NCBI RefSeq assembly: GCF_009914755.1
Contig: NC_060936.1
Source of the DNA: the human T2T-CHM13v2.0 reference genome, Homo sapiens
Length of the DNA: 64,000 bases
Strand: one strand, 5' to 3'
Positions within the stretch are counted from its first letter, which is position 1; each line of letters opens with the position of its first letter. The position numbers and the translations under genes are program-made. The notes under the pieces are model-generated. The model had not been told where the DNA came from. It did no database searches and was given only the letters and a program-made list of their open reading frames with translations. Shown piece after piece: positions 583 to 60,332 of the stretch.

Positions 583-636
583 CTGGTCCGGCTCCGATTC
601 ATAGTCGTCGTCCTCGGCGCTCACGGACATGGCCAT
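583..636 (-). CDS. KDM2B: KDM2B-SF alternative first coding exon, MAMSVSAEDDDYESEPDQ (54 nt, phase 0)
   Basis: Minus strand GCC-ATG-GCC-ATG-TCC...GAC-CAG|GTCGGC. The peptide matches the N-terminus I recall for the short JmjC-less isoform. The phase-0 end matches the phase-0 end of the 28028-28114 exon it replaces. Confidence 0.88.
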
Positions 637-683
637 GGCTCATGGTGGGCCCAGGCTCGCGCGCGCTGACATGGCTGGAGCGG

Positions 684-754
684 CGCCGCCGCCGCCGCCC
701 GCCCGGAGCAGGCTCGGCTCGCCCTGGCTCGGGCTCGGGCTCGGGCTCGGGCTC
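684..754 (-). repeat. (GGC)5 and (CGAGCC)~5 short tandem repeats in the SF 5' leader
   Basis: cgccgccgccgccgcc at 684-699; ggctcg x4 + ggctc at 726-754. Confidence 0.85.
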
Positions 755-844
755 CCGCTGCCGCGAGGAGGGAGCCGCGCCGCGCGCCTCGCACGCCCGC
801 GCTGGAGGGGGCGGGGAGGGGCCGGCGGGGGAGGGCCGGGGCGC

Positions 845-46716: not shown

Positions 46717-46944
<228 letters not shown>

Positions 46945-48142
46945 TCACTGTCATCATCTTAGCGAGAGCATGGATGGTCGGGGGAGAAATGGTGGGGTGC
47001 TGGAAGGGAGATGCCGGCAGCATGCACAAATGAGGCGGAGGACGAGGCCCGCATGAGCGCCTCATCTCAAAGGTCCCTGAGCTGCACGCCCCAGAGGTTG
47101 GATGGGGGCCACTTGATGCTCCCGTGAGATGCAGAAAAACAGAATTCTCCCCTGACCTGCCTGCAGAGAGTGTGGGCACCTGCAGGTGGGAGCCGCTGCC
47201 TGATTCTAGCTACAACAGACATAGGTTCCTCCTTGTTTCTGAAAATTCCTGCACAGATTCTGCTGTTCCTCCCTCCTGCTTGAAAACCAGAAATCAACTT
47301 CCAAGCCTTATCTATTTGCAGACAGGTTATGGAGCCTCCTCCTGTTTGTTGGGAGGGAGGCCAGGCCAGCGGACCAATAAGAGTGAGGGGGTGTGGCCTC
47401 GCCTACCTCCAGGGGTGGGGCCTTGAAGGGGTCCATCTCCTGCTCCTCCCCACACCCGTCTGGCACTGCCCAGCCTGCAAGGCCACAAGGGCTCCCTCTG
47501 ACAGAGGTCCCAGGTATGACCTGAGACCAGCGTGATGCTGAGCTGAGGGAGACACATCTCGGGTCTGGAGCAGGAGATCCCTTTTGTCCCACCTCTGTCA
47601 CCCAGGCTGGAGTGCAGTGGCACGATCATAGCTCACTCAGCCTCGACCTCCTGGGCTCAAGCGACCCTCCTGCCTCAGCCCTGTGAGTAGCTGGGACTAC
47701 TGGCGCGCGCACCACCACGCCTGGCTGGGTTTTTTTGTATTTTTTGTAGAGATGGGGTTTGCCATGTTGCTGGTTGGCTGTTTATCATAGAAGAGGAAGT
47801 AAAGGTGGAGACAGCTTTGTGTACTAGAACTGTCAAAAGGCCTGAGCCCCGGGAGATTCCACGGGGGGCAGTTCAGGGTCTGTACAGATGAGATGTCACC
47901 GAAAGATGGGAAGGAAACAACGCCACTGATGGACCCAACACAAGGATGGAAAGAGGTCCCTGACACCCACACGGGGCCTCTCCTGCAGAGGCCACACGAT
48001 GGTCTCACATGCCCACACTCACACCTTGCTCCCTGGCTCTCTTGCCAAGAGGGTGTCTGCGGGGACGAGAAAGCCCTCCTCCCCTCCCTGATCCTATGCG
48101 AACTCAGGGAGTTGGATGGTGAACAATTACATTCTCCCACCT

Positions 48143-50700
48143 TCTAATCACACTCCCCTGCCCCTAATATCTTCACTCCCCTAATCGCACTCACCCATCC
48201 CCCCATTCACACTCTCCTAACCCCCATCACACTCCCCACCCTCCTATTCACACTCTCCACCCTCCTATTCACACTCCCCACACGCCAATCACACTCTCCA
48301 ATCCCCATCACACTCCCCACCCGCCAATCACACTCTCCAATCCCCATCACACTCCCCACCCCCTCTAATCACATTCCCCATCCCTCTAATCACACACCCC
48401 ATCCCCTCTAATCACACTCCCCACCCCCAATCACACTCCCCACCCCCCAATCACACTCCCCACCCCCCAATCACACTACCCACCCCCTCTAATCACACTC
48501 CCCACCCCCAATCACACTCCCCACCCCAATCACACTCCCCATCCCCTCTAATCACACTCCCCACCCCCAATCACACTCCCCACCCCCAATCACACTCCCC
48601 ACCCCCTCTAATCACACTCCCCACCCCCCAATCACACTCCCCACCCCCCAATCACACTCCCCACCCCCCAATCACACTCCCCACCCCCTCTAATCACACT
48701 CCCCACCCCCTCTAATCACACTCCCCACCCCAATCACACTCCCCATCCCCTCTAATCACACTCCCCACCCCCAATCACACTCCCCACCCCCTCTAATCAC
48801 ACTCCCCACCCCCCAATCACACTCCCCACCCCCTCTAATCACACTCCCCACCCCCATCACACTCCCCACCCCCAATCACACTCCCCACCCCCCAATCACA
48901 CTCCCCACCCCCTCTAATCACACTCCCCACCCCCTAATCACACTCCCCACCCCAATCACACTCCCCATCCCCTCTAATCACACTCCCCACCCCCAATCAC
49001 ACTCCCCACCCCCAATCACACTCCCCACCCCCTCTAATCACACTCCCCACCCCCTCTAATCACACTCCCCACCCCCCAATCACACTCCCCACCCCCCAAT
49101 CACACTCCCCACCCCCCAATCACACTCCCCACCCCCTCTAATCACACTCCCCACCCCCTAATCACACTCCCCACCCCCTCTAATCACACTCCCCACCCCC
49201 CAATCACACTCCCCACCCCCTCTAATCACACTCCCCACCCCCTAATCACACTCCCCACCCCAGTCACACTCCCCATCCCCTCTAATCACACTCCCCACCC
49301 CCAATCACACTCCCCACCCCCCAATCACACTCCTCACCCCCTCTAATCACACTCCCCATCCCCTAATCACACTCCCCACCCCAATCACACTCCCCATCCC
49401 CTCTAATCACACTCCCCACCCCCAATCACACTCCCCACCCCCCAATCACACTCCTCACCCCCTCTAATCACACTCCCCACCCCCTAATCACACTCCCCAC
49501 CCCAATCACACTCCCCATCCCCTCTAATCACACTCCCCACCCCCAATCACACTCCCCACCCCCCAATCACACTCCCCACCCCCTCTAATCACACTCCCCA
49601 CCCCCTAATCACACTCCCCACCCCCAATCACACTCCCCATCCCCTCTAATCACACTCCCCACCCCCAATCACACTCCCCACCCCCTCTAATCACACTCCC
49701 CACCCCCTAATCACACTCCCCACCCCAATCACACTCCCCATCCCCTCTAATCACACTCCCCACCCCCAATCACACTCCCCACCCTCCAATCACACTCCTC
49801 ACCCCCTCTAATCACACTCCCCACCCCCTAATCACACTCCCCACCCCAATCACACTCCCCATCCCCTCTAATCACACTCCCCACCCCCAATCACACTCCC
49901 CACCCCCTCTAATCACACTCCCCACCCCCCAATCACAGTCCCCATCCCCCAATCACACTCCCCATCCCCCCATCACTCCCCACCCCCCAATCACATTCCC
50001 CATCCCCCGAATCACACCCCCCACCCCCTAATCACACTCCCCACCCCCTAATCACACTCCCTATCCCCCTCTAATTACACTCCCCATCCCCCTCTAATCA
50101 CACTCCCCACCCCCAATCACACTCCCTATCCCCCTCTAATTACACTCCCCATCCCCCTCTAATCACACTCCCCACCCCCAATCACACTCCCCACCCCCAA
50201 TCACACTCCCCACCCCCTCTAATCACACTCCCCACCCCCAATCACACTCCCCACCCCCTCTAATCACACTCCCCGTCCCCCAATCACACTTCCCATCCCC
50301 CAATCACACTCCCCATCCCCTGATCACACTCCCCATCCCCCTAATCACACTCCCCACCCCCTAATCACACTCCCCACTCCCCTAATCACACTCCCCATCC
50401 CCCAATCACACTCCCCATCCCCCAATCACACTCCCCATCCCCCAATCACACTCCCCGCCCCCAATCATACTCCCCATCCCCCAATCACACTCCCCATCCC
50501 CTGATCACACTCCCCATCCCCCTAATCACACTCCCCACCCCCTCTAATTACACTCCCCATCCCCCTAATCACACTCCCCACCCCCCTGATCACACTCCCC
50601 ACCTCCAAATCGCACTCGCCACCCCCTCTAATCACACTCGCCACCCCCAACCACACTCTGCCACCCCCTAATCACACTCTCCCACCCTCCCCGAATCACA
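48143..50700. repeat. ~2.5 kb C-rich VNTR, ~19-22 bp unit (C/T)AATCACACTCCCCA(C/T)CCCC(CT), >100 copies
   Basis: Direct read; degenerate edges, homogeneous core. Confidence 0.98.
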
Positions 50701-51312
50701 CTTGCCCACCTCCACTGCCCTGCTCTCTGCTGACAATAAACAGGTGACATTCCCCATCTGGGACAAAGACAACTAGAAGCAGACCTCCGTTCTCCTTTTG
50801 CCCTAAAATGCTATTTTGCTGCATTTCTCAAAGTGCCCGTCTGGAAAAGGCCCAAACCCAGCGTCTCTGAGAGTCCTGGCTCTCACTCAGCTCCTGGCCT
50901 CAAGGCCTCCTCCCACTGCTGGGCCTCCTCTCTCCGCCTGCACACTGGGTGCTGGGCTCTGCCTGCCTCTGATGGATGGAATGCTTTGGAATGGGATCAT
51001 GGCCACCACATGCTCTTCAGCCCCCTGGGGGATGCACGGAGTGGGGACCATCATCTAGCGGTTTCCTTGGCTCCAGCTCCTTTCCTGAGAACCCCAGTTT
51101 CAGTGCTGGGAGAAGAGTCATCTTTTCTCATAGTTACTAGATCGGTGCCCTCTGGAGTTTAAAAAAGAGGGGCTCCTAGGCATGAAGCAAACCTTGATTT
51201 CCTATGAAGAAGGGTTTAGGGGACCTCAGCCCCACCTCTATTCAAGAGAAACGGACAAAAGATTTTGGAACGAATTACCAGTACTTAAAAAGCAAGCTGA
51301 GGACGGACAGAC

Positions 51313-51436
51313 CTCATCCACATTTCCTGACATGAGACTTGATTGGTAAAACTCTGAAGTCGGTTTTGACTTTTCAAATCTTTTTGACACCTTCCGAGCC
51401 ATTCTGCTCGGACACCATGACCACCTGGGAATCTTT
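51313..51436 (-). other. Candidate cryptic exon E (124 nt; alt acceptor 51424, alt donor 51279)
   Basis: CTCAATTTTTTTCCCCTAATTTAG|AAAG...GAG|GTCTGT or ...CTG|GTAATT. Confidence 0.45.
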
Positions 51437-51562
51437 CTAAATTAGGGGAAAAAAATTGAGGGGGCTGCACTTCAGGAGGGAAAGATAAGTCTCCCTTCTT
51501 TGTTGCTGAACCCAATGGAAACCAGCTGGGTGAAAACAAATGCTGATGAAGGAATTCAAATT

Positions 51563-51580
51563 TTTATTTATTTATTTATT
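51563..51580 (-). terminator. Candidate intronic polyadenylation signal cluster (4 overlapping AATAAA)
   Basis: Plus strand TTTATTTATTTATTTATT, not attached to any Alu; U-rich TTTGTTTT about 20-30 nt downstream on the minus strand. Confidence 0.35.
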
Positions 51581-51634
51581 TTTTTTTCCAAGAGAGGACT
51601 GCGGGAAACAAAAATTTGCAAAGAATTGACTTAC

Positions 51635-51686
51635 AAACAGGTTGTCGCCTTCCACCCTTCGCCTTCAAAAGGTTTCAGCCACATGC
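51635..51686 (-). other. Candidate cryptic exon D (52 nt)
   Basis: TTTAATGTCCCCAG|GCATGTGG...CTGTTT|GTAAGT. Confidence 0.5.
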
Positions 51687-51745
51687 CTGGGGACATTAAA
51701 CATACGGTTGCTCAACATTATTTGTTGACAGACTCGGAGCCTCAC

Positions 51746-52029
51746 CAAATTGAGTTAACCAACGTCAGTCCAAAACAAAAGGCAAGGCAGTCACAAGGCA
51801 TGCAATGCTCCCAGCCTGCAGGTCATCCGTCTACCAGAGGACCTCAGGGCCCACTCAGCGGCACCTGGCCTCAGCCCTTCCTCGGAGGTCCAAGTCATCT
51901 TCAAGCTGAGTGACCTCAGGAGATGACAACAAAAGGTTTCTCGAGTGTATCTAGAACTCCCAGGTCTCAAGGACTTGAAAAAGTCAAAATGTGAGAGTGG
52001 GTGGAAGTGTCCTACAATTTGTTTTTCTC
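51746..52029 (-). other. Candidate cryptic exon C (284 nt)
   Basis: Long poly-T tract then CCAG|GAG acceptor; TTG|GTGAGG donor. Confidence 0.35.
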
Positions 52030-52166
52030 CTGGAAAAAAAAAAAAAAAAAATCAATGGAAAAAAAAAAAAGTCCAATGGTAGGGGGAAGGGGAGAGGGAA
52101 GGTAAATTATTTGCAATTTCCAAATAGATTCAGTGGCTGTAAGGGAATGGGGCATGTCGGCATTAC

Positions 52167-52198
52167 CTTTTCTGGGAAGGCTGCTTTCACTAGAGCCA
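52167..52198 (-). other. Candidate microexon B (32 nt)
   Basis: TTTATCTTTCCCCCCCTCCCAG|TGGCTCTAG...AGAAAAG|GTAATG. Confidence 0.55.
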
Positions 52199-52271
52199 CT
52201 GGGAGGGGGGGAAAGATAAATAAAAGATAAATATAAGAGAGATGGCAATTTAATGATCATTTGGACCATAC

Positions 52272-52290
52272 CTATTCCCTATCAACCTAA
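52272..52290 (-). other. Candidate microexon A (19 nt; 15 nt from tandem acceptor 52286)
   Basis: TTCTTTTAACTTCAG|TTAG|GTTGATAGGGAATAG|GTATGG. Confidence 0.4.
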
Positions 52291-52629
52291 CTGAAGTTAA
52301 AAGAATGTAGTGATGATCGAGATGTTGTCTTAAGTATCAAATGCACAACATATCCACTCGTTGCTGTCACTCTTCCATCACTCTTCATAGCTTCAGGATG
52401 AGGGGAAGGGGAGATTTCATCTACAAGGGTTGGGGAATGGAAATCCACCATTCCCCAAACACCTGTATATGTTCGTGCCACCTCATGGGCAGTGACATTG
52501 CAGGATGGGGTCACCTATCATCTCGCCAGAAAAATTTAAATGGTGAAGGTAAGACACAGCTTCCTAGGGAACCCTGGGGTTCCCTAGTTTAGATAGGGGT
52601 CCCCACCTTGGGCCACAAAGGCAAATTCT

Positions 52630-55360
<2,731 letters not shown>

Positions 55361-56109
55361 AGTCTTCAGTTTTGACCCAGTTTGGGACCTGTCTTATGTG
55401 CCTAGGGACACGTGATCAAGTCCTAGCACGAGAAAGGCCATGGCAAGTTCAGGCCACTTGTCCTTTTCAGGGGACACTTGTGGAGCGAAGGACACACATC
55501 AGTTACCTAAGCCTCCGCCCATGTTCGTAGGACATGGGGTGAGTGAGGGAAACTTGACGTCTGGGAAACTAGCACCGTCCCTGTCAAGGGCAGAGAAAAG
55601 CCTCGGCCCCAGGAAACTAGAGACGTCCTCAGCAGACATGGAGACTACCTCAGAGACAGTACCCAGGGGGACTCAGGCACTGGCTTCCTCAGGCTTCCTC
55701 CCCAGTCAGATCTGGGGTCCCTGGGAGAACATATAGCCAAGACCTGACCTCAGACCAGGACAGGCCCTTCCAAGGTCCACACCCATCCTCCAAACAACAG
55801 CGACCAAATCCCCCTAATCCCTCACACCACTTTCTCCACGTGAGGAGGAAGAGGCAGGTCCCTGAAATCTCACGGTGCTTTCTCAGAGACACTTCCTCTT
55901 CCACAAGGGGGTTTTGGCTGCCCCCAACCTGGAGGTGAACAGAAACTCCAGGGCCTCCGGGTGTGGCTCCTACAGGCATTCCCCTGCCCCCCCTCCCCCG
56001 CCACAGAACCAGGACTGAAGCCAGCTTGAGAGAGGAATCGGGAGGGAGAGGGGAACTGTGGAGGACTTCAGTATGACCTGTCCCACACACCGAGCACCGG
56101 CAGAGCTCA

Positions 56110-56490
<381 letters not shown>

Positions 56491-58090: not shown

Positions 58091-60332
58091 TCTGCATGGT
58101 CCATGAAGGCTGGGAGAAAGCCCCTCATTCACTGGGACACACAGCTACTGCACTGCAATTCACAGTGGCCATACTGCAAGTGCTCAGGTGACATGTGTGT
58201 GGCTCCTGGCTGCCGGGTCACACAGCGTGGGGCTAGGAGATGGGCAGGAGGAGAATCAACCCCAATTCACAGATGCTGAAACTGAGGGCACAAAGGGGGA
58301 AGCCACTTGCTGAATGAGTCACAGCTGGCAAGCGACAGCGGCTCCGTTTTTAGCCAGCACGCTGCACAGCTGCCGCTGCATCAAAGGTTCTGCACAGGAC
58401 TGCAAGTCCCGGGGGAAAGGCTGGGAAATACAGAGGGGAGGCAAAAGGAGAAACGCAGAGAGAAATAAGGACAAGGGCGGACAGAGGCGGAGCAACTCAC
58501 AGTGAAGGACAGAGGAGGGTTGGCTGGGGGAATGGTGCAGCAGAGGGAAGGGTGGCGGTGCCCCAAGACCCTGCACCTTGAAGGGCCTGGCCCTGGAGGC
58601 CGCTGTCCCCTCCTCTCCCAGCCATGCACTTTATTCTTTTGCTCTGAGGAAAATTACAGCGACTGCCTCTGCCCCCCAAGCCCGAGCGGTTCCAGTCTGT
58701 CCCCCAATGAAACACGCCAGCCCTGAGTCATGGGTGGTCACCACTGCTGGGAGCAACGCTCCTGCCTGGAAGACAGCACAGACTGCGGGGCCACTGCTGG
58801 CATCCGCAGTGGACACTCAGCCGCTGTCCCTTCCCACCAGGGCAACGCATGGAACAGAGCTGGCCATCCTCAGGGGAGAGCAAGGGAAAGCTCATCACCA
58901 GAAGCCCAGTGCTGCCGGGTACAGGCACGAGGGCTTTGCTTTAGGCAACCTCGTTCTGTGCCTGGCTCCCCGGGTCTCTGGCGTGAGCCATGAAAGACAG
59001 CTGCTCTGTGCGGTTGCAAGCGGCCGTCGAGCTCCCCAGCTTCCCATCCCACGACCTTCACCCTCCTCTGCACAGAAGCATGGCTGCCGCCCTGAAAGAG
59101 CCTCTGTCTCCACATCCGCTTCAGTCTCCTGCCTCTGCTGCCTGCAGGCTGACCTCAACATTTCCATGTTTCCACCAAGTGGAACCATGCTATTGAATGC
59201 TGTTATTGTCGCCATCCCCGTTATCCTAGCAACATTTCCTAAGATTGGGACCCGGGACCACCGGGTCATGTGATGCACAGGCAGGTGCATCTTATATGGC
59301 CCCACAAGCCTACCTCCCTCCCTGCAGAAAGCCCAAGTCCAGGGGCTAGGGTTCCATCCTGTCCCCTCCACTCCCCTCCCTTCTGGGGAACTTGGTGAGC
59401 AAGTCCTGAATCCATATAAGCAATTGGCATTGGTATCTGTGGTTGTCTCTGTCGATCACAAGGGCTCTGGTAGAGGATGGTGCCCACATGCATCCATCTT
59501 TCCCAGCCCTGGACTCTCCCTGTTCTCCTGGCAGGTGCAGAGGCCAACGCACCTGACTTACATCTGTTGCCCTGACACGTGAGGAAAGAGGAACACAGAG
59601 GAGAGCTGCTGCTGCGAGGAGGGGGCAGGGGATCTGCACGCCCAGACACTCGAGGGATTCTAGAAGCTTTTACCCACTCCCCTTCGCAGCCAGGGCCTCA
59701 AGGGTGGGTCAGGCAGCCACCCCTGGATTAGCCGCCACTGCGTCCCTCCCCCAGCTCTGCTCACATCTGCTTCATTACCCACATGCCTCCCTCAGTAAGA
59801 AGGAGGTGTGGAAATAACAGCGTTTGTGGGCCCCATCCATACCCCTCCTCCGATGGCCTCTCGACAGCCCAGGAAGCATGAGAGCCGGTGCTCCCAGGCT
59901 GCTGCCTGGGCTGGGAACGCTGGCATCTGCCTCCTGCTTCCAGCCAGAGTCATCGACAATATGAAGGCAATAAACAGAGGCTATTCAGGCCAAGCGACCA
60001 GGGACAGATGCAGTCATAGATGGGAAGCCAGTGATACACAAAGCAGCACATTCTCTGGGACCTCAGGGGGCCCAAGAAGGGCAGCAGGGGCAGGTGGGGC
60101 TCACCCACAACCTGAGCGTCTGCTCAGGACTCGGAATCCAAAGGCCCCACCCACATCTGCCTCCACCTCTGTGGCTTTAGCAGGAATAAACCTAGAGGTC
60201 TCAGAACTGGGCAAGGGACACCTCACAGACGCCCACAACCCAACCGGACCCTGGCTTCTTTCACCGACATCAGTGAACTCCCTGCGCCGGGCCAGGATCA
60301 GGAACGAACCTGTGGCTGCTGACATGAAGTAA

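What the first reader, a model, noticed from the sequence alone, without database searches (positions are those of the whole stretch)
51279..52290. Battery of five candidate poison/micro-exons placed immediately after the JmjC domain
Seen: an Alu-free, AT-richer block with five acceptor/donor pairs, all on the KDM2B strand: A 52290(52286)-52272, B 52198-52167, C 52029-51746, D 51686-51635, E 51436(51424)-51313(51279). Spliced to the phase-0 end of the last JmjC exon (56152), every one hits an early stop. A: TTA-GGT-TGA (or VDRE*); B: TGG-CTC-TAG; C: EKNKL*; D: GCA-TGT-GGC-TGA; E: stop at codon 21. An RBFOX motif TGCATG lies at 51799-51804. Known: chromatin regulators often carry conserved NMD-coupled poison exons. 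Inference: a splicing rheostat that removes only the catalytic long isoform and leaves SF (separate promoter) untouched. Parts may already appear as minor GENCODE transcripts; I cannot check.
Basis: partly seen in the sequence, partly recalled or inferred. Interest (0 to 1): 0.85.

Follow-up and report, generated by a model that had tools for sequence, protein, structure and literature searches.

The report
Two catalogued KDM2B poison exons, three look-alikes
Two of the five proposed stop-carrying mini-exons in this KDM2B intron are already listed in published human and mouse splicing catalogues as conserved decay-triggering exons, while I found no outside support for the other three.

Summary
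The sequence observation is exact.

Sequence statistics cannot settle the matter. About 93-96% of comparable AG..GT pairs in the window also bring a stop or frameshift. A run of five non-overlapping pairs is rare on the gene strand: 1 of 630 sliding windows and 2 of 1000 shuffles. But it occurs at two loci on the control strand.

Literature supplements decided it.
- **Candidate B (52198-52167, 32 nt)** maps base for base onto hg38 chr12:121517000-121517031. That is KDM2B exon "9b" in Margasyuk 2024: in VastDB, maximum GTEx PSI 0.56, liver and testis.
- **A 23-nt form of B and candidate D (52 nt)** are the two KDM2B "NMD_in" exons in Felker 2023. They derive from Yan 2015 mouse cortex data, with splice sites conserved between mouse and human.
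- **A, C and E** have no support in what I could see.

The core idea is therefore right for two of five exons and is already in print as catalogue entries. The "battery of five" and the rheostat function remain unshown.

The parts
56152..56267 (-). Constitutive KDM2B exon upstream of the intron. Both catalogues' naming makes it exon 9. It ends in phase 0 and encodes the end of the JmjC barrel and the start of the Jumonji helical domain.
   Evidence: Hub RefSeq table. (translation ...IEDRTR). (Pfam JHD PF17811, residues 23-37, E 0.013, below the cut-off because it is a fragment).
52167..52198 (-). Candidate B: a 32-nt poison cassette exon, catalogued as KDM2B exon '9b'. Stop at codon 3 (TGG CTC TAG). 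The acceptor follows a long CU-rich tract. The donor is AAG|gtaatg.
   Evidence: Acceptor PWM rank 20 of 4806 AG, donor rank 109 of 3713 GT. Maps exactly to hg38 chr12:121517000-121517031 using the offset from the intron's upstream end. Margasyuk 2024 table: in VastDB, phastCons score 205, split-read support 7, maximum GTEx PSI 0.56, Liver/Testis.
52167..52189 (-). 23-nt form of B. It uses the AG of B's own TAG as acceptor, so the first codon is TGA. This is the form lifted over from mouse cortex data.
   Evidence: Felker 2023 PE_2_of_2, chr12:121517000-121517022, class NMD_in. An AG lies at 52191-52190. The acceptor PWM is weak, -0.43.
51635..51686 (-). Candidate D: a 52-nt poison cassette exon. 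Stop at codon 4 (GCA TGT GGC TGA). The donor is TTT|gtaagt.
   Evidence: Felker 2023 PE_1_of_2, chr12:121516469-121516520, has the same 52-nt length and maps to 51687-51636, one base off. The class is NMD_in, and the list's entry criteria include AG/GU conserved between mm10 and hg19. PWM ranks are weak: 232 of 4806 and 399 of 3713. I saw no human expression data for D.
52272..52290 (-). Candidate A (19 nt, or 15 nt from 52286). The AG..GT pair carries a stop but has no outside support.
   Evidence: 276 pairs as good or better on the two strands of the window. Absent from the catalogue rows seen.
51746..52029 (-). Candidate C (284 nt). It has the best-scoring acceptor of the window, but only because it follows T13 and T19 runs. 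No outside support.
   Evidence: acceptor rank 1 of 4806, donor rank 101 of 3713. TRF finds a 20-nt duplication at 52039-52079. Absent from the catalogue rows seen.
51279..51436 (-). Candidate E with its alternative ends (51424 acceptor; 51313 and 51279 donors). No outside support.
   Evidence: The 51313 donor scores 0.85 (rank 453 of 3713) and the 51424 acceptor scores -2.14. Absent from the catalogue rows seen.
51799..51804 (-). TGCATG (RBFOX-type hexamer). It lies 112 nt upstream of D's acceptor and 362 nt downstream of B's donor. A GCATG also forms the first five bases of D.
   Evidence: The window rate is 10 per 64 kb on this strand, so one copy here is not enriched.
46722..46848 (-). Constitutive downstream exon (exon 10), entered in phase 0.
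   Evidence: Hub table..

Best explanation
The 1-kb unique block in KDM2B intron 9 holds two real, evolutionarily conserved, already catalogued poison cassette exons. They are B (32 nt, with a 23-nt form from an internal AG) and D (52 nt).

When either is spliced in between exon 9 (phase-0 end) and exon 10, a stop codon appears within 1-4 codons, more than a dozen exon junctions upstream of the normal stop. The transcript should therefore be degraded by nonsense-mediated decay.

The short KDM2B isoform starts from a promoter further downstream. Only the long, JmjC-bearing isoform can carry these exons, so their inclusion lowers the long form selectively.

Candidates A, C and E are most likely ordinary intronic pseudo-exons of the kind found throughout the window.

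Shown: the sequence anatomy, the stops, and the identity with the catalogue entries. Taken from the papers: inclusion in RNA and splice-site conservation. Inferred: actual NMD decay and any regulatory effect on long-form protein.
For: - **Anatomy and stops.**
- **Coordinate identity.** Felker 2023's BED gives the host intron as hg38 chr12:121513403-121520984. Anchoring its upstream end at window 56151 puts 121517031/121517000 exactly on 52198/52167, which is B. It puts 121517022 on 52189, directly after an AG. It puts 121516520/121516469 on 51687/51636, which is D shifted by one base, with identical lengths of 32, 23 and 52 nt.
- **Margasyuk 2024 supplementary table** (part 1 and the KDM2B row read). 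KDM2B 9b is in VastDB, has phastCons score 205, split-read support 7 and coverage 21, is found in GTEx Liver and Testis with maximum PSI 0.56, and has TCGA dPSI +0.152 in KICH and LIHC. Its methods (sections 10, 15-17 read) require junction reads, coverage and conservation above the 10th percentile of annotated cassette exons.
- **Felker 2023** (methods passages and supplement rows read). Both KDM2B entries are Yan-2015 class NMD_in. They are alternatively spliced in developing mouse cortex, with AG/GU conserved between mm10 and hg19.
- **Weyn-Vanhentenryck 2018 Dataset S5.** A Kdm2b NMD_in cassette rises from PSI 0 at E14.5 to 0.21 at P7 and stays at 0.10-0.16 later. It belongs to the early-switch module M2.
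- **Short form from a separate promoter.** Review PMC7000146, passages. The alternative exons 583-823 have no AG before any of their four starts.
- **Site density.** The block is the only one of 630 sliding windows on the gene strand with five non-overlapping site pairs.
Against: - The Margasyuk table files 9b under biotype 'unknown', not 'poison', and its cycloheximide dPSI is NA. Stabilisation on NMD block is therefore not shown.
- Support for B is modest: 7 split reads, coverage 21.
- I saw no human RNA evidence for D, and its sites are weak by my PWM (ranks 232 of 4806 and 399 of 3713).
- The Dataset S5 Kdm2b row carries no coordinates. It cannot be tied to B or D, and it is flagged 'under selection 0' and 'known AS 0'.
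- KDM2B is absent from the supplements of the RIPiT study PMC8091538 (2 files) and of the mouse-neuron AS-NMD study PMC11188260 (12 of 13 files searched).
- None of the 51 RefSeq transcripts has an exon in this intron (hub table).
- Felker's coordinate convention is uncertain by one base. Its AGRN row is one less than Margasyuk's at both ends.
- I could not read hg38 itself.
Confidence: 0.7

Rival explanations
1. One reading: all five candidates are used, forming a five-part battery of alternative poison or micro-exons that together act as a graded rheostat on the long isoform.
For: Five non-overlapping acceptor/donor pairs in 1 kb is the maximum on the gene strand (1 of 630 windows; 2 of 1000 shuffles). 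Two of the five proved real. C has the top-scoring acceptor in the window, and its donor ranks 101 of 3713.
Against: A, C and E are in neither catalogue row set seen. Pairs as good as A, D or E number 214-572 on the two strands. The control strand has two loci with five pairs. C's acceptor score comes from T13 and T19 runs; from recalled knowledge (Zarnack 2013, not read here), long U-tracts are bound by hnRNP C, which blocks U2AF65.
Confidence: 0.07
2. B and D are real splice products but are non-adaptive splicing noise. They are included at low levels, cleared by NMD, and have no regulatory role in setting KDM2B long-form levels.
For: Split-read support for B is low (7) and the conservation score modest (205 of 1000). 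The Kdm2b NMD_in exon is flagged 'under selection 0'. No focused study exists: 0 papers for KDM2B with 'poison exon', 0 with 'microexon' and 0 with 'intronic polyadenylation'.
Against: Splice sites are conserved between mouse and human. Inclusion is tissue-restricted and reaches PSI 0.56 in liver/testis despite expected decay. The Kdm2b NMD exon shows a monotonic developmental rise in two independent mouse cortex series.
Confidence: 0.18
3. The inclusion isoforms escape decay and encode a truncated N-terminal protein ending just after the JmjC barrel. Alternatively, they end at the AATAAA cluster at 51580-51563 as an intronic-polyadenylation isoform.
For: Steady-state PSI of 0.56 is high for an NMD substrate. 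The only four AATAAA hexamers on the gene strand in the 9.3-kb intron lie between D and E.
Against: The AATAAA copies are part of an (AAAT)n microsatellite. No RefSeq transcript ends here (hub table). The cut would fall inside the Jumonji helical domain, which continues into exon 10, so a folded catalytic module is unlikely. No paper pairs KDM2B with intronic polyadenylation.
Confidence: 0.04

Closest known systems
NMD-coupled cassette exons in chromatin regulators of the developing mouse cortex (Yan et al. 2015, PNAS; not held here, known through Felker 2023 and from recall)
   Same: B (23-nt form) and D are drawn from that very data set, class NMD_in, with conserved AG/GU. KDM2B is a chromatin regulator. 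A Kdm2b NMD_in exon switches on around birth.
   Different: Nothing differs in kind; they are members of that set. What has not been described in the papers I could search is any study of these two exons or of their long-isoform specificity.
Conserved cryptic tissue-specific poison exons of Margasyuk et al. 2024 (PMC11632617)
   Same: B is row 'KDM2B 9b' among that paper's 394 exons. It is unannotated in GENCODE v43 and RefSeq, conserved, supported by junction reads and tissue-specific.
   Different: It is filed as 'unknown' rather than 'poison' there. By my translation from the RefSeq frame it gives a stop at codon 3.
Ultraconserved poison exons of SR-protein genes, and SCN1A exon 20N
   Same: The same logic applies: a cassette exon with an in-frame stop between constitutive coding exons lowers productive mRNA.
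   Different: Those lie in ultraconserved blocks and have demonstrated autoregulation or disease variants. Here conservation is modest (score 205 of 1000) and no regulator or variant is known (recalled comparison; SCN1A 20N is also described in Felker 2023).
Intronic pseudo-exons (false exons)
   Same: A, C and E look like these: site pairs of ordinary strength, at 4.7-5.8 pairs per kb on both strands, nearly all carrying stops.
   Different: B and D would have been filed here too on sequence alone, so sequence scores cannot separate the classes.

Membership tests
Poison (NMD-coupled) cassette exon | Internal exon bounded by AG and GT inside an intron of the coding region | tested here: met
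   All five candidates, plus the 23-nt form of B.
Poison (NMD-coupled) cassette exon | [quoted passage not shown] | tested here: met
   Stops at codon 3 (B), 1 (B 23 nt), 4 (D), 3 (A), 6 (C) and 21 (E) on entry from the phase-0 exon end. B+D together (84 or 75 nt) also carry stops. By the hub table the gene has 23 exons, with many junctions downstream.
Poison (NMD-coupled) cassette exon | Inclusion observed in RNA, with junction reads on both sides | not testable with these tools
   From papers only. B in GTEx: split-read support 7, PSI up to 0.56. The 23-nt form of B and D in mouse cortex, via Felker 2023. Nothing found for A, C or E.
Poison (NMD-coupled) cassette exon | Inclusion isoform rises when NMD is inhibited | not testable with these tools
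   CHX_dPSI is NA for KDM2B 9b in A549. There are no KDM2B rows in the RIPiT supplement.
Poison (NMD-coupled) cassette exon | Splice sites or exon conserved across species | not testable with these tools
   No vertebrate genomes are on hand. From papers: AG/GU conserved between mm10 and hg19 is an entry criterion of the Felker list, and the phastCons element score for B is 205.
Regulated unproductive splicing switch (rheostat) | Inclusion varies with tissue or stage and anticorrelates with productive mRNA or protein | tested here: inconclusive
   Tissue restriction of B (Liver, Testis) and a developmental rise of a Kdm2b NMD_in exon fit this. The latter row has no coordinates, and I saw no expression anticorrelation.
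Neuronal microexon (27 nt or shorter) | Length of 27 nt or less with neural-regulated inclusion | tested here: inconclusive
   The 23-nt form of B and the 19/15-nt A meet the length criterion. The source of the 23-nt form is mouse cortex. No paper pairs KDM2B with 'microexon'.

The most novel reading that the evidence does not exclude
The block is a compound, long-isoform-specific off-switch. B and D, perhaps with one of the unannotated neighbours such as C, would be used in different tissues: B in liver and testis, the 23-nt B form and D in postnatal cortex. They would shut down only the demethylase-bearing KDM2B while leaving the short CxxC/F-box form untouched, setting the LF:SF ratio post-transcriptionally. 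These exons would also be antisense targets to raise KDM2B in haploinsufficient patients.
Probability: 0.12. Interest if true: 0.55.

Novelty: already known. Interest (0 to 1): 0.33.

Why it matters
KDM2B long and short isoforms have different knockout phenotypes (review passages). KDM2B loss-of-function causes a neurodevelopmental disorder (abstracts listed).

Poison exons that can hit only the long form would give a simple post-transcriptional way to set the LF:SF ratio. They are also the kind of target used for antisense up-regulation of haploinsufficient genes, and places where deep-intronic patient variants could act.

The exons are in catalogues, but in the library searched no paper discusses them. 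The practical value is to point at B and D, and to withdraw attention from A, C and E.

Tried and rejected
1. **Chance only.** After the PWM and null analysis I was ready to call all five ordinary pseudo-exons. The supplement searches overturned that for B and D. My PWM uses recalled, approximate site frequencies. It ranks the four real exons well (donor ranks 2, 12, 29, 32 of 3713), but it would have dismissed D.
2. **Repeat origin.** Self-BLAST of 50750-52800 against the window finds only A/T-run matches inside the block; Alu starts near 52620. A whole-assembly search finds only T-run hits on two other chromosomes.
3. **Structured RNA.** 0 Rfam matches in the whole intron.
4. **Regulator motifs.** UCUU, CUCUCU, YCAY, YGCY and GCATG counts around B and D are near window rates. 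The exception is three UCUU plus one CUCUCU in B's pyrimidine tract. No regulator can be named.
5. **Main-text paper searches.**
   - KDM2B + 'poison exon': 0.
   - KDM2B + 'cryptic exon': 4, none about this intron. One validates an Alu exon at hg38 121,554,076, which by my estimate lies outside the window.
   - KDM2B + NMD/exon: 23, none about this intron among the passages read.
   - FBXL10 + nonsense-mediated: 23; PMC1949830 lists isoforms only.
   - KDM2B + 'intronic polyadenylation': 0.
   - KDM2B + 'microexon': 0.
6. **Other supplements.** KDM2A has no entry in the Felker list, so there is no sign of a paralogous module. No KDM2B rows in PMC8091538 or PMC11188260 (one file of the latter was not searched).
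7. **Unavailable sources.** PDF supplements could not be read, so figures there may bear on KDM2B 9b.

Full report
**The observation.** I read 51200-52400 and the two flanking exons on the minus (KDM2B) strand and recomputed every candidate.

| Candidate | Coordinates | Length | Reading from phase 0 |
|---|---|---|---|
| A | 52290-52272 | 19 nt | LG* |
| A (alt. acceptor) | 52286-52272 | 15 nt | VDRE* |
| B | 52198-52167 | 32 nt | WL* |
| C | 52029-51746 | 284 nt | EKNKL* |
| D | 51686-51635 | 52 nt | ACG* |
| E | 51436 or 51424 to 51313 or 51279 | 112-158 nt | stop at codon 21 from 51436 |

- The upstream exon 56267-56152 ends on a complete codon (...IEDRTR). The next exon opens in phase 0 (VQPKF...).
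- TGCATG is at 51804-51799 on the gene strand.
- The block is AT-richer than its flanks: GC 0.41-0.48 against 0.54-0.61.
- It is free of the Alu-like self-matches that fill 44% of the window.
- It is single-copy in the whole assembly except for its T-runs.

The description is therefore correct to the base.

**Is it more than chance?** I scored all AG and GT sites with simple position-weight matrices. Their frequencies are recalled from textbooks and are approximate.

The matrices rank the four annotated exons well:
- Real donors rank 2, 12, 29 and 32 of 3713.
- Real acceptors rank 12, 43, 117 and 382 of 4806.

The candidates compare as follows:
- Candidate donors rank 101-453, all weaker than the real ones.
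- Candidate acceptors rank 1 (C, driven by T13 and T19 runs), 20 (B) and 134-232.

Further results:
- **Pair density.** Pairs at least as strong as the weakest candidates number 371 on the gene strand and 301 on the other strand.
- **Stops.** 345 of 371 and 288 of 301 of these bring a stop or frameshift. "Every one hits an early stop" therefore carries no information.
- **Chains on the gene strand.** Five non-overlapping pairs within 1012 nt is rare: 1 of 630 sliding windows, which is this block, and 2 of 1000 dinucleotide shuffles against a mean of 1.36.
- **Chains on the control strand.** The non-gene strand reaches five in 5 of 630 windows, at two loci.
- **Caveats.** The thresholds were fitted after the fact, and the block is the best of 64 kb.
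- **A stronger pair elsewhere.** The same intron holds an unlisted pair with better balanced scores, 55580-55307: acceptor 8.08, donor 5.34 inside a sense Alu.

On sequence alone I would have called the whole set ordinary pseudo-exons.

**What changed the verdict.** Main-text searches gave nothing on KDM2B poison exons. Searching the supplements of poison-exon catalogues did.

*Margasyuk et al. 2024* (PMC11632617; abstract, sections 10, 11, 15-17, and Supplementary Data File 1 part 1 plus the KDM2B row read). The row is chr12_121517000_121517031_-, KDM2B, exon "9b", with these values:

| Field | Value |
|---|---|
| in VastDB | yes |
| in CHESS | no |
| phastCons score | 205 |
| split-read support | 7 |
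| coverage | 21 |
| GTEx tissues | Liver, Testis |
| maximum PSI | 0.56 |
| TCGA dPSI | +0.152 (KICH, LIHC) |
| CHX dPSI | NA |
| biotype | "unknown" |

*Felker et al. 2023* (PMC9882217; methods and results passages and supplement rows read). It lists two KDM2B poison exons, both class NMD_in, in NM_032590.5 intron chr12:121513403-121520984:
- chr12:121516469-121516520
- chr12:121517000-121517022

Its list is built from Yan et al. 2015 cassette exons that are alternatively spliced in developing mouse cortex. Entries must cause NMD on inclusion and have AG/GU conserved between mm10 and hg19.

**Mapping the catalogue entries onto the window.** The host intron in the window is 46849-56151. I anchored its upstream end (56151 = hg38 121520984).
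- 121517031 and 121517000 fall on 52198 and 52167, which is exactly B.
- 121517022 falls on 52189, directly after the AG of B's own TAG. This gives a 23-nt form whose first codon is TGA.
- 121516520 and 121516469 fall on 51687 and 51636. This is D's length (52 nt), shifted by one base.

Two T-runs of 13 and 19 lie between B and D, and they are a likely place for a 1-nt difference between assemblies. That is inference.

Felker's coordinate convention is uncertain by one base. Its AGRN row is one lower than Margasyuk's at both ends. I could not read hg38, so the identity rests on exact lengths and boundaries.

The catalogue naming makes this intron 9: exon "9b", and UCSC intron_13 counted from the low-coordinate end of 22 introns.

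**Further context.**
- Weyn-Vanhentenryck et al. 2018 (PMC5989265; passages, the Dataset S5 header and the Kdm2b rows read) list a Kdm2b NMD_in cassette, CA-sr-chr5r-1600, in the early-switch module M2.
- Its cortex PSI runs 0, 0.003, 0.033, 0.076, 0.215, 0.165, 0.098, 0.131 and 0.119 from E14.5 to 21 months. An independent frontal-cortex series behaves similarly.
- The row has no coordinates, so I cannot say whether it is B, D or another exon. It is flagged "under selection 0".
- The short KDM2B isoform arises from an alternative intronic promoter and first exon 1b (review PMC7000146, passages).
- In the window, the alternative exons 583-823 have no AG before any start and share one donor, as first exons would.
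- Transcripts of the short form therefore begin downstream of this intron and cannot carry B or D.
- Pfam places the start of the Jumonji helical domain at the end of exon 9, continuing into exon 10. Both hits are below cut-off because they are fragments. The intron thus lies inside the catalytic module rather than strictly after it.

**Mechanism.**
- Shown here: B (either form) or D, or both together (84 or 75 nt, in frame but with stops), place a stop within 1-4 codons of the exon 9 junction.
- Taken from the papers: the exons are spliced in. B reaches PSI 0.56 in human liver/testis, and the 23-nt form of B and D are seen in mouse cortex. Their splice sites are conserved.
- Inferred: the products are NMD substrates and their inclusion lowers long-form KDM2B. 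The one NMD-inhibition value available is NA.
- Negative searches: KDM2B is absent from the RIPiT supplement (2 files) and from the mouse-neuron AS-NMD supplement (12 of 13 files).
- Regulators: motif counts around B and D do not single out a regulator. B's pyrimidine tract has three UCUU and one CUCUCU. The single TGCATG lies in the intron 112 nt upstream of D, not in an exon, and is not enriched.

**Verdict.** A, C and E have no support in anything I could see and look like the background.

The five-part "battery" and the rheostat function are not shown. Novelty: already known as catalogue entries. What is not in the searched literature is any study of these exons or of their long-isoform specificity.

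**Limits.**
- No vertebrate alignments, RNA-seq junction data, GENCODE or VastDB were available.
- PDF supplements could not be read.
- Yan 2015 was not held.

Noticed in passing
window 48146-50710: A 2.5-kb minisatellite in the same intron, about 570 nt downstream (in the sense of transcription) of candidate E. It has a 20-nt unit (CCCCCAATCACACTCCCCAC on the + strand) in about 124 copies at 85% match. The + strand has almost no G (GC skew -0.99 to -1.0), so the pre-mRNA strand is G-rich with GGGG runs. The intron is 9303 nt here but 7582 nt in hg38 by Felker's BED. The 1721-nt excess is probably this array (inference).
   Followed up: partly
window 51563-51580, minus strand: Four overlapping AATAAA hexamers inside an (AAAT)n run, between D and E. 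They are the only AATAAA on the gene strand in the 9.3-kb intron (window rate 0.59 per kb). This is a possible intronic polyadenylation signal; no transcript evidence was seen.
   Followed up: partly
Its donor GAG|gtgggt lies in a sense-oriented Alu. It is not in the catalogue rows seen.
   Followed up: partly
window 52031-52079, minus strand: Two T-runs (13 and 19 T) within a 20-nt tandem duplication just upstream of candidate C. They are the likely site of the 1-nt offset between the hg38 coordinates of B and D and their window positions, and probably length-polymorphic.
   Followed up: no
window 583-823, minus strand: The four alternative exon starts (823, 812, 803, 743) have no preceding AG and share one weak donor (CAG|gtcggc, PWM 0.97) in GC-rich sequence. 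This fits alternative first exons of the short KDM2B isoform.
   Followed up: partly
window 46801-48112 and 59101-60112, plus strand: Two loci on the non-gene strand also reach five non-overlapping AG..GT pairs per 1012 nt at the same thresholds. I used them as the control for the density statistic.
   Followed up: partly
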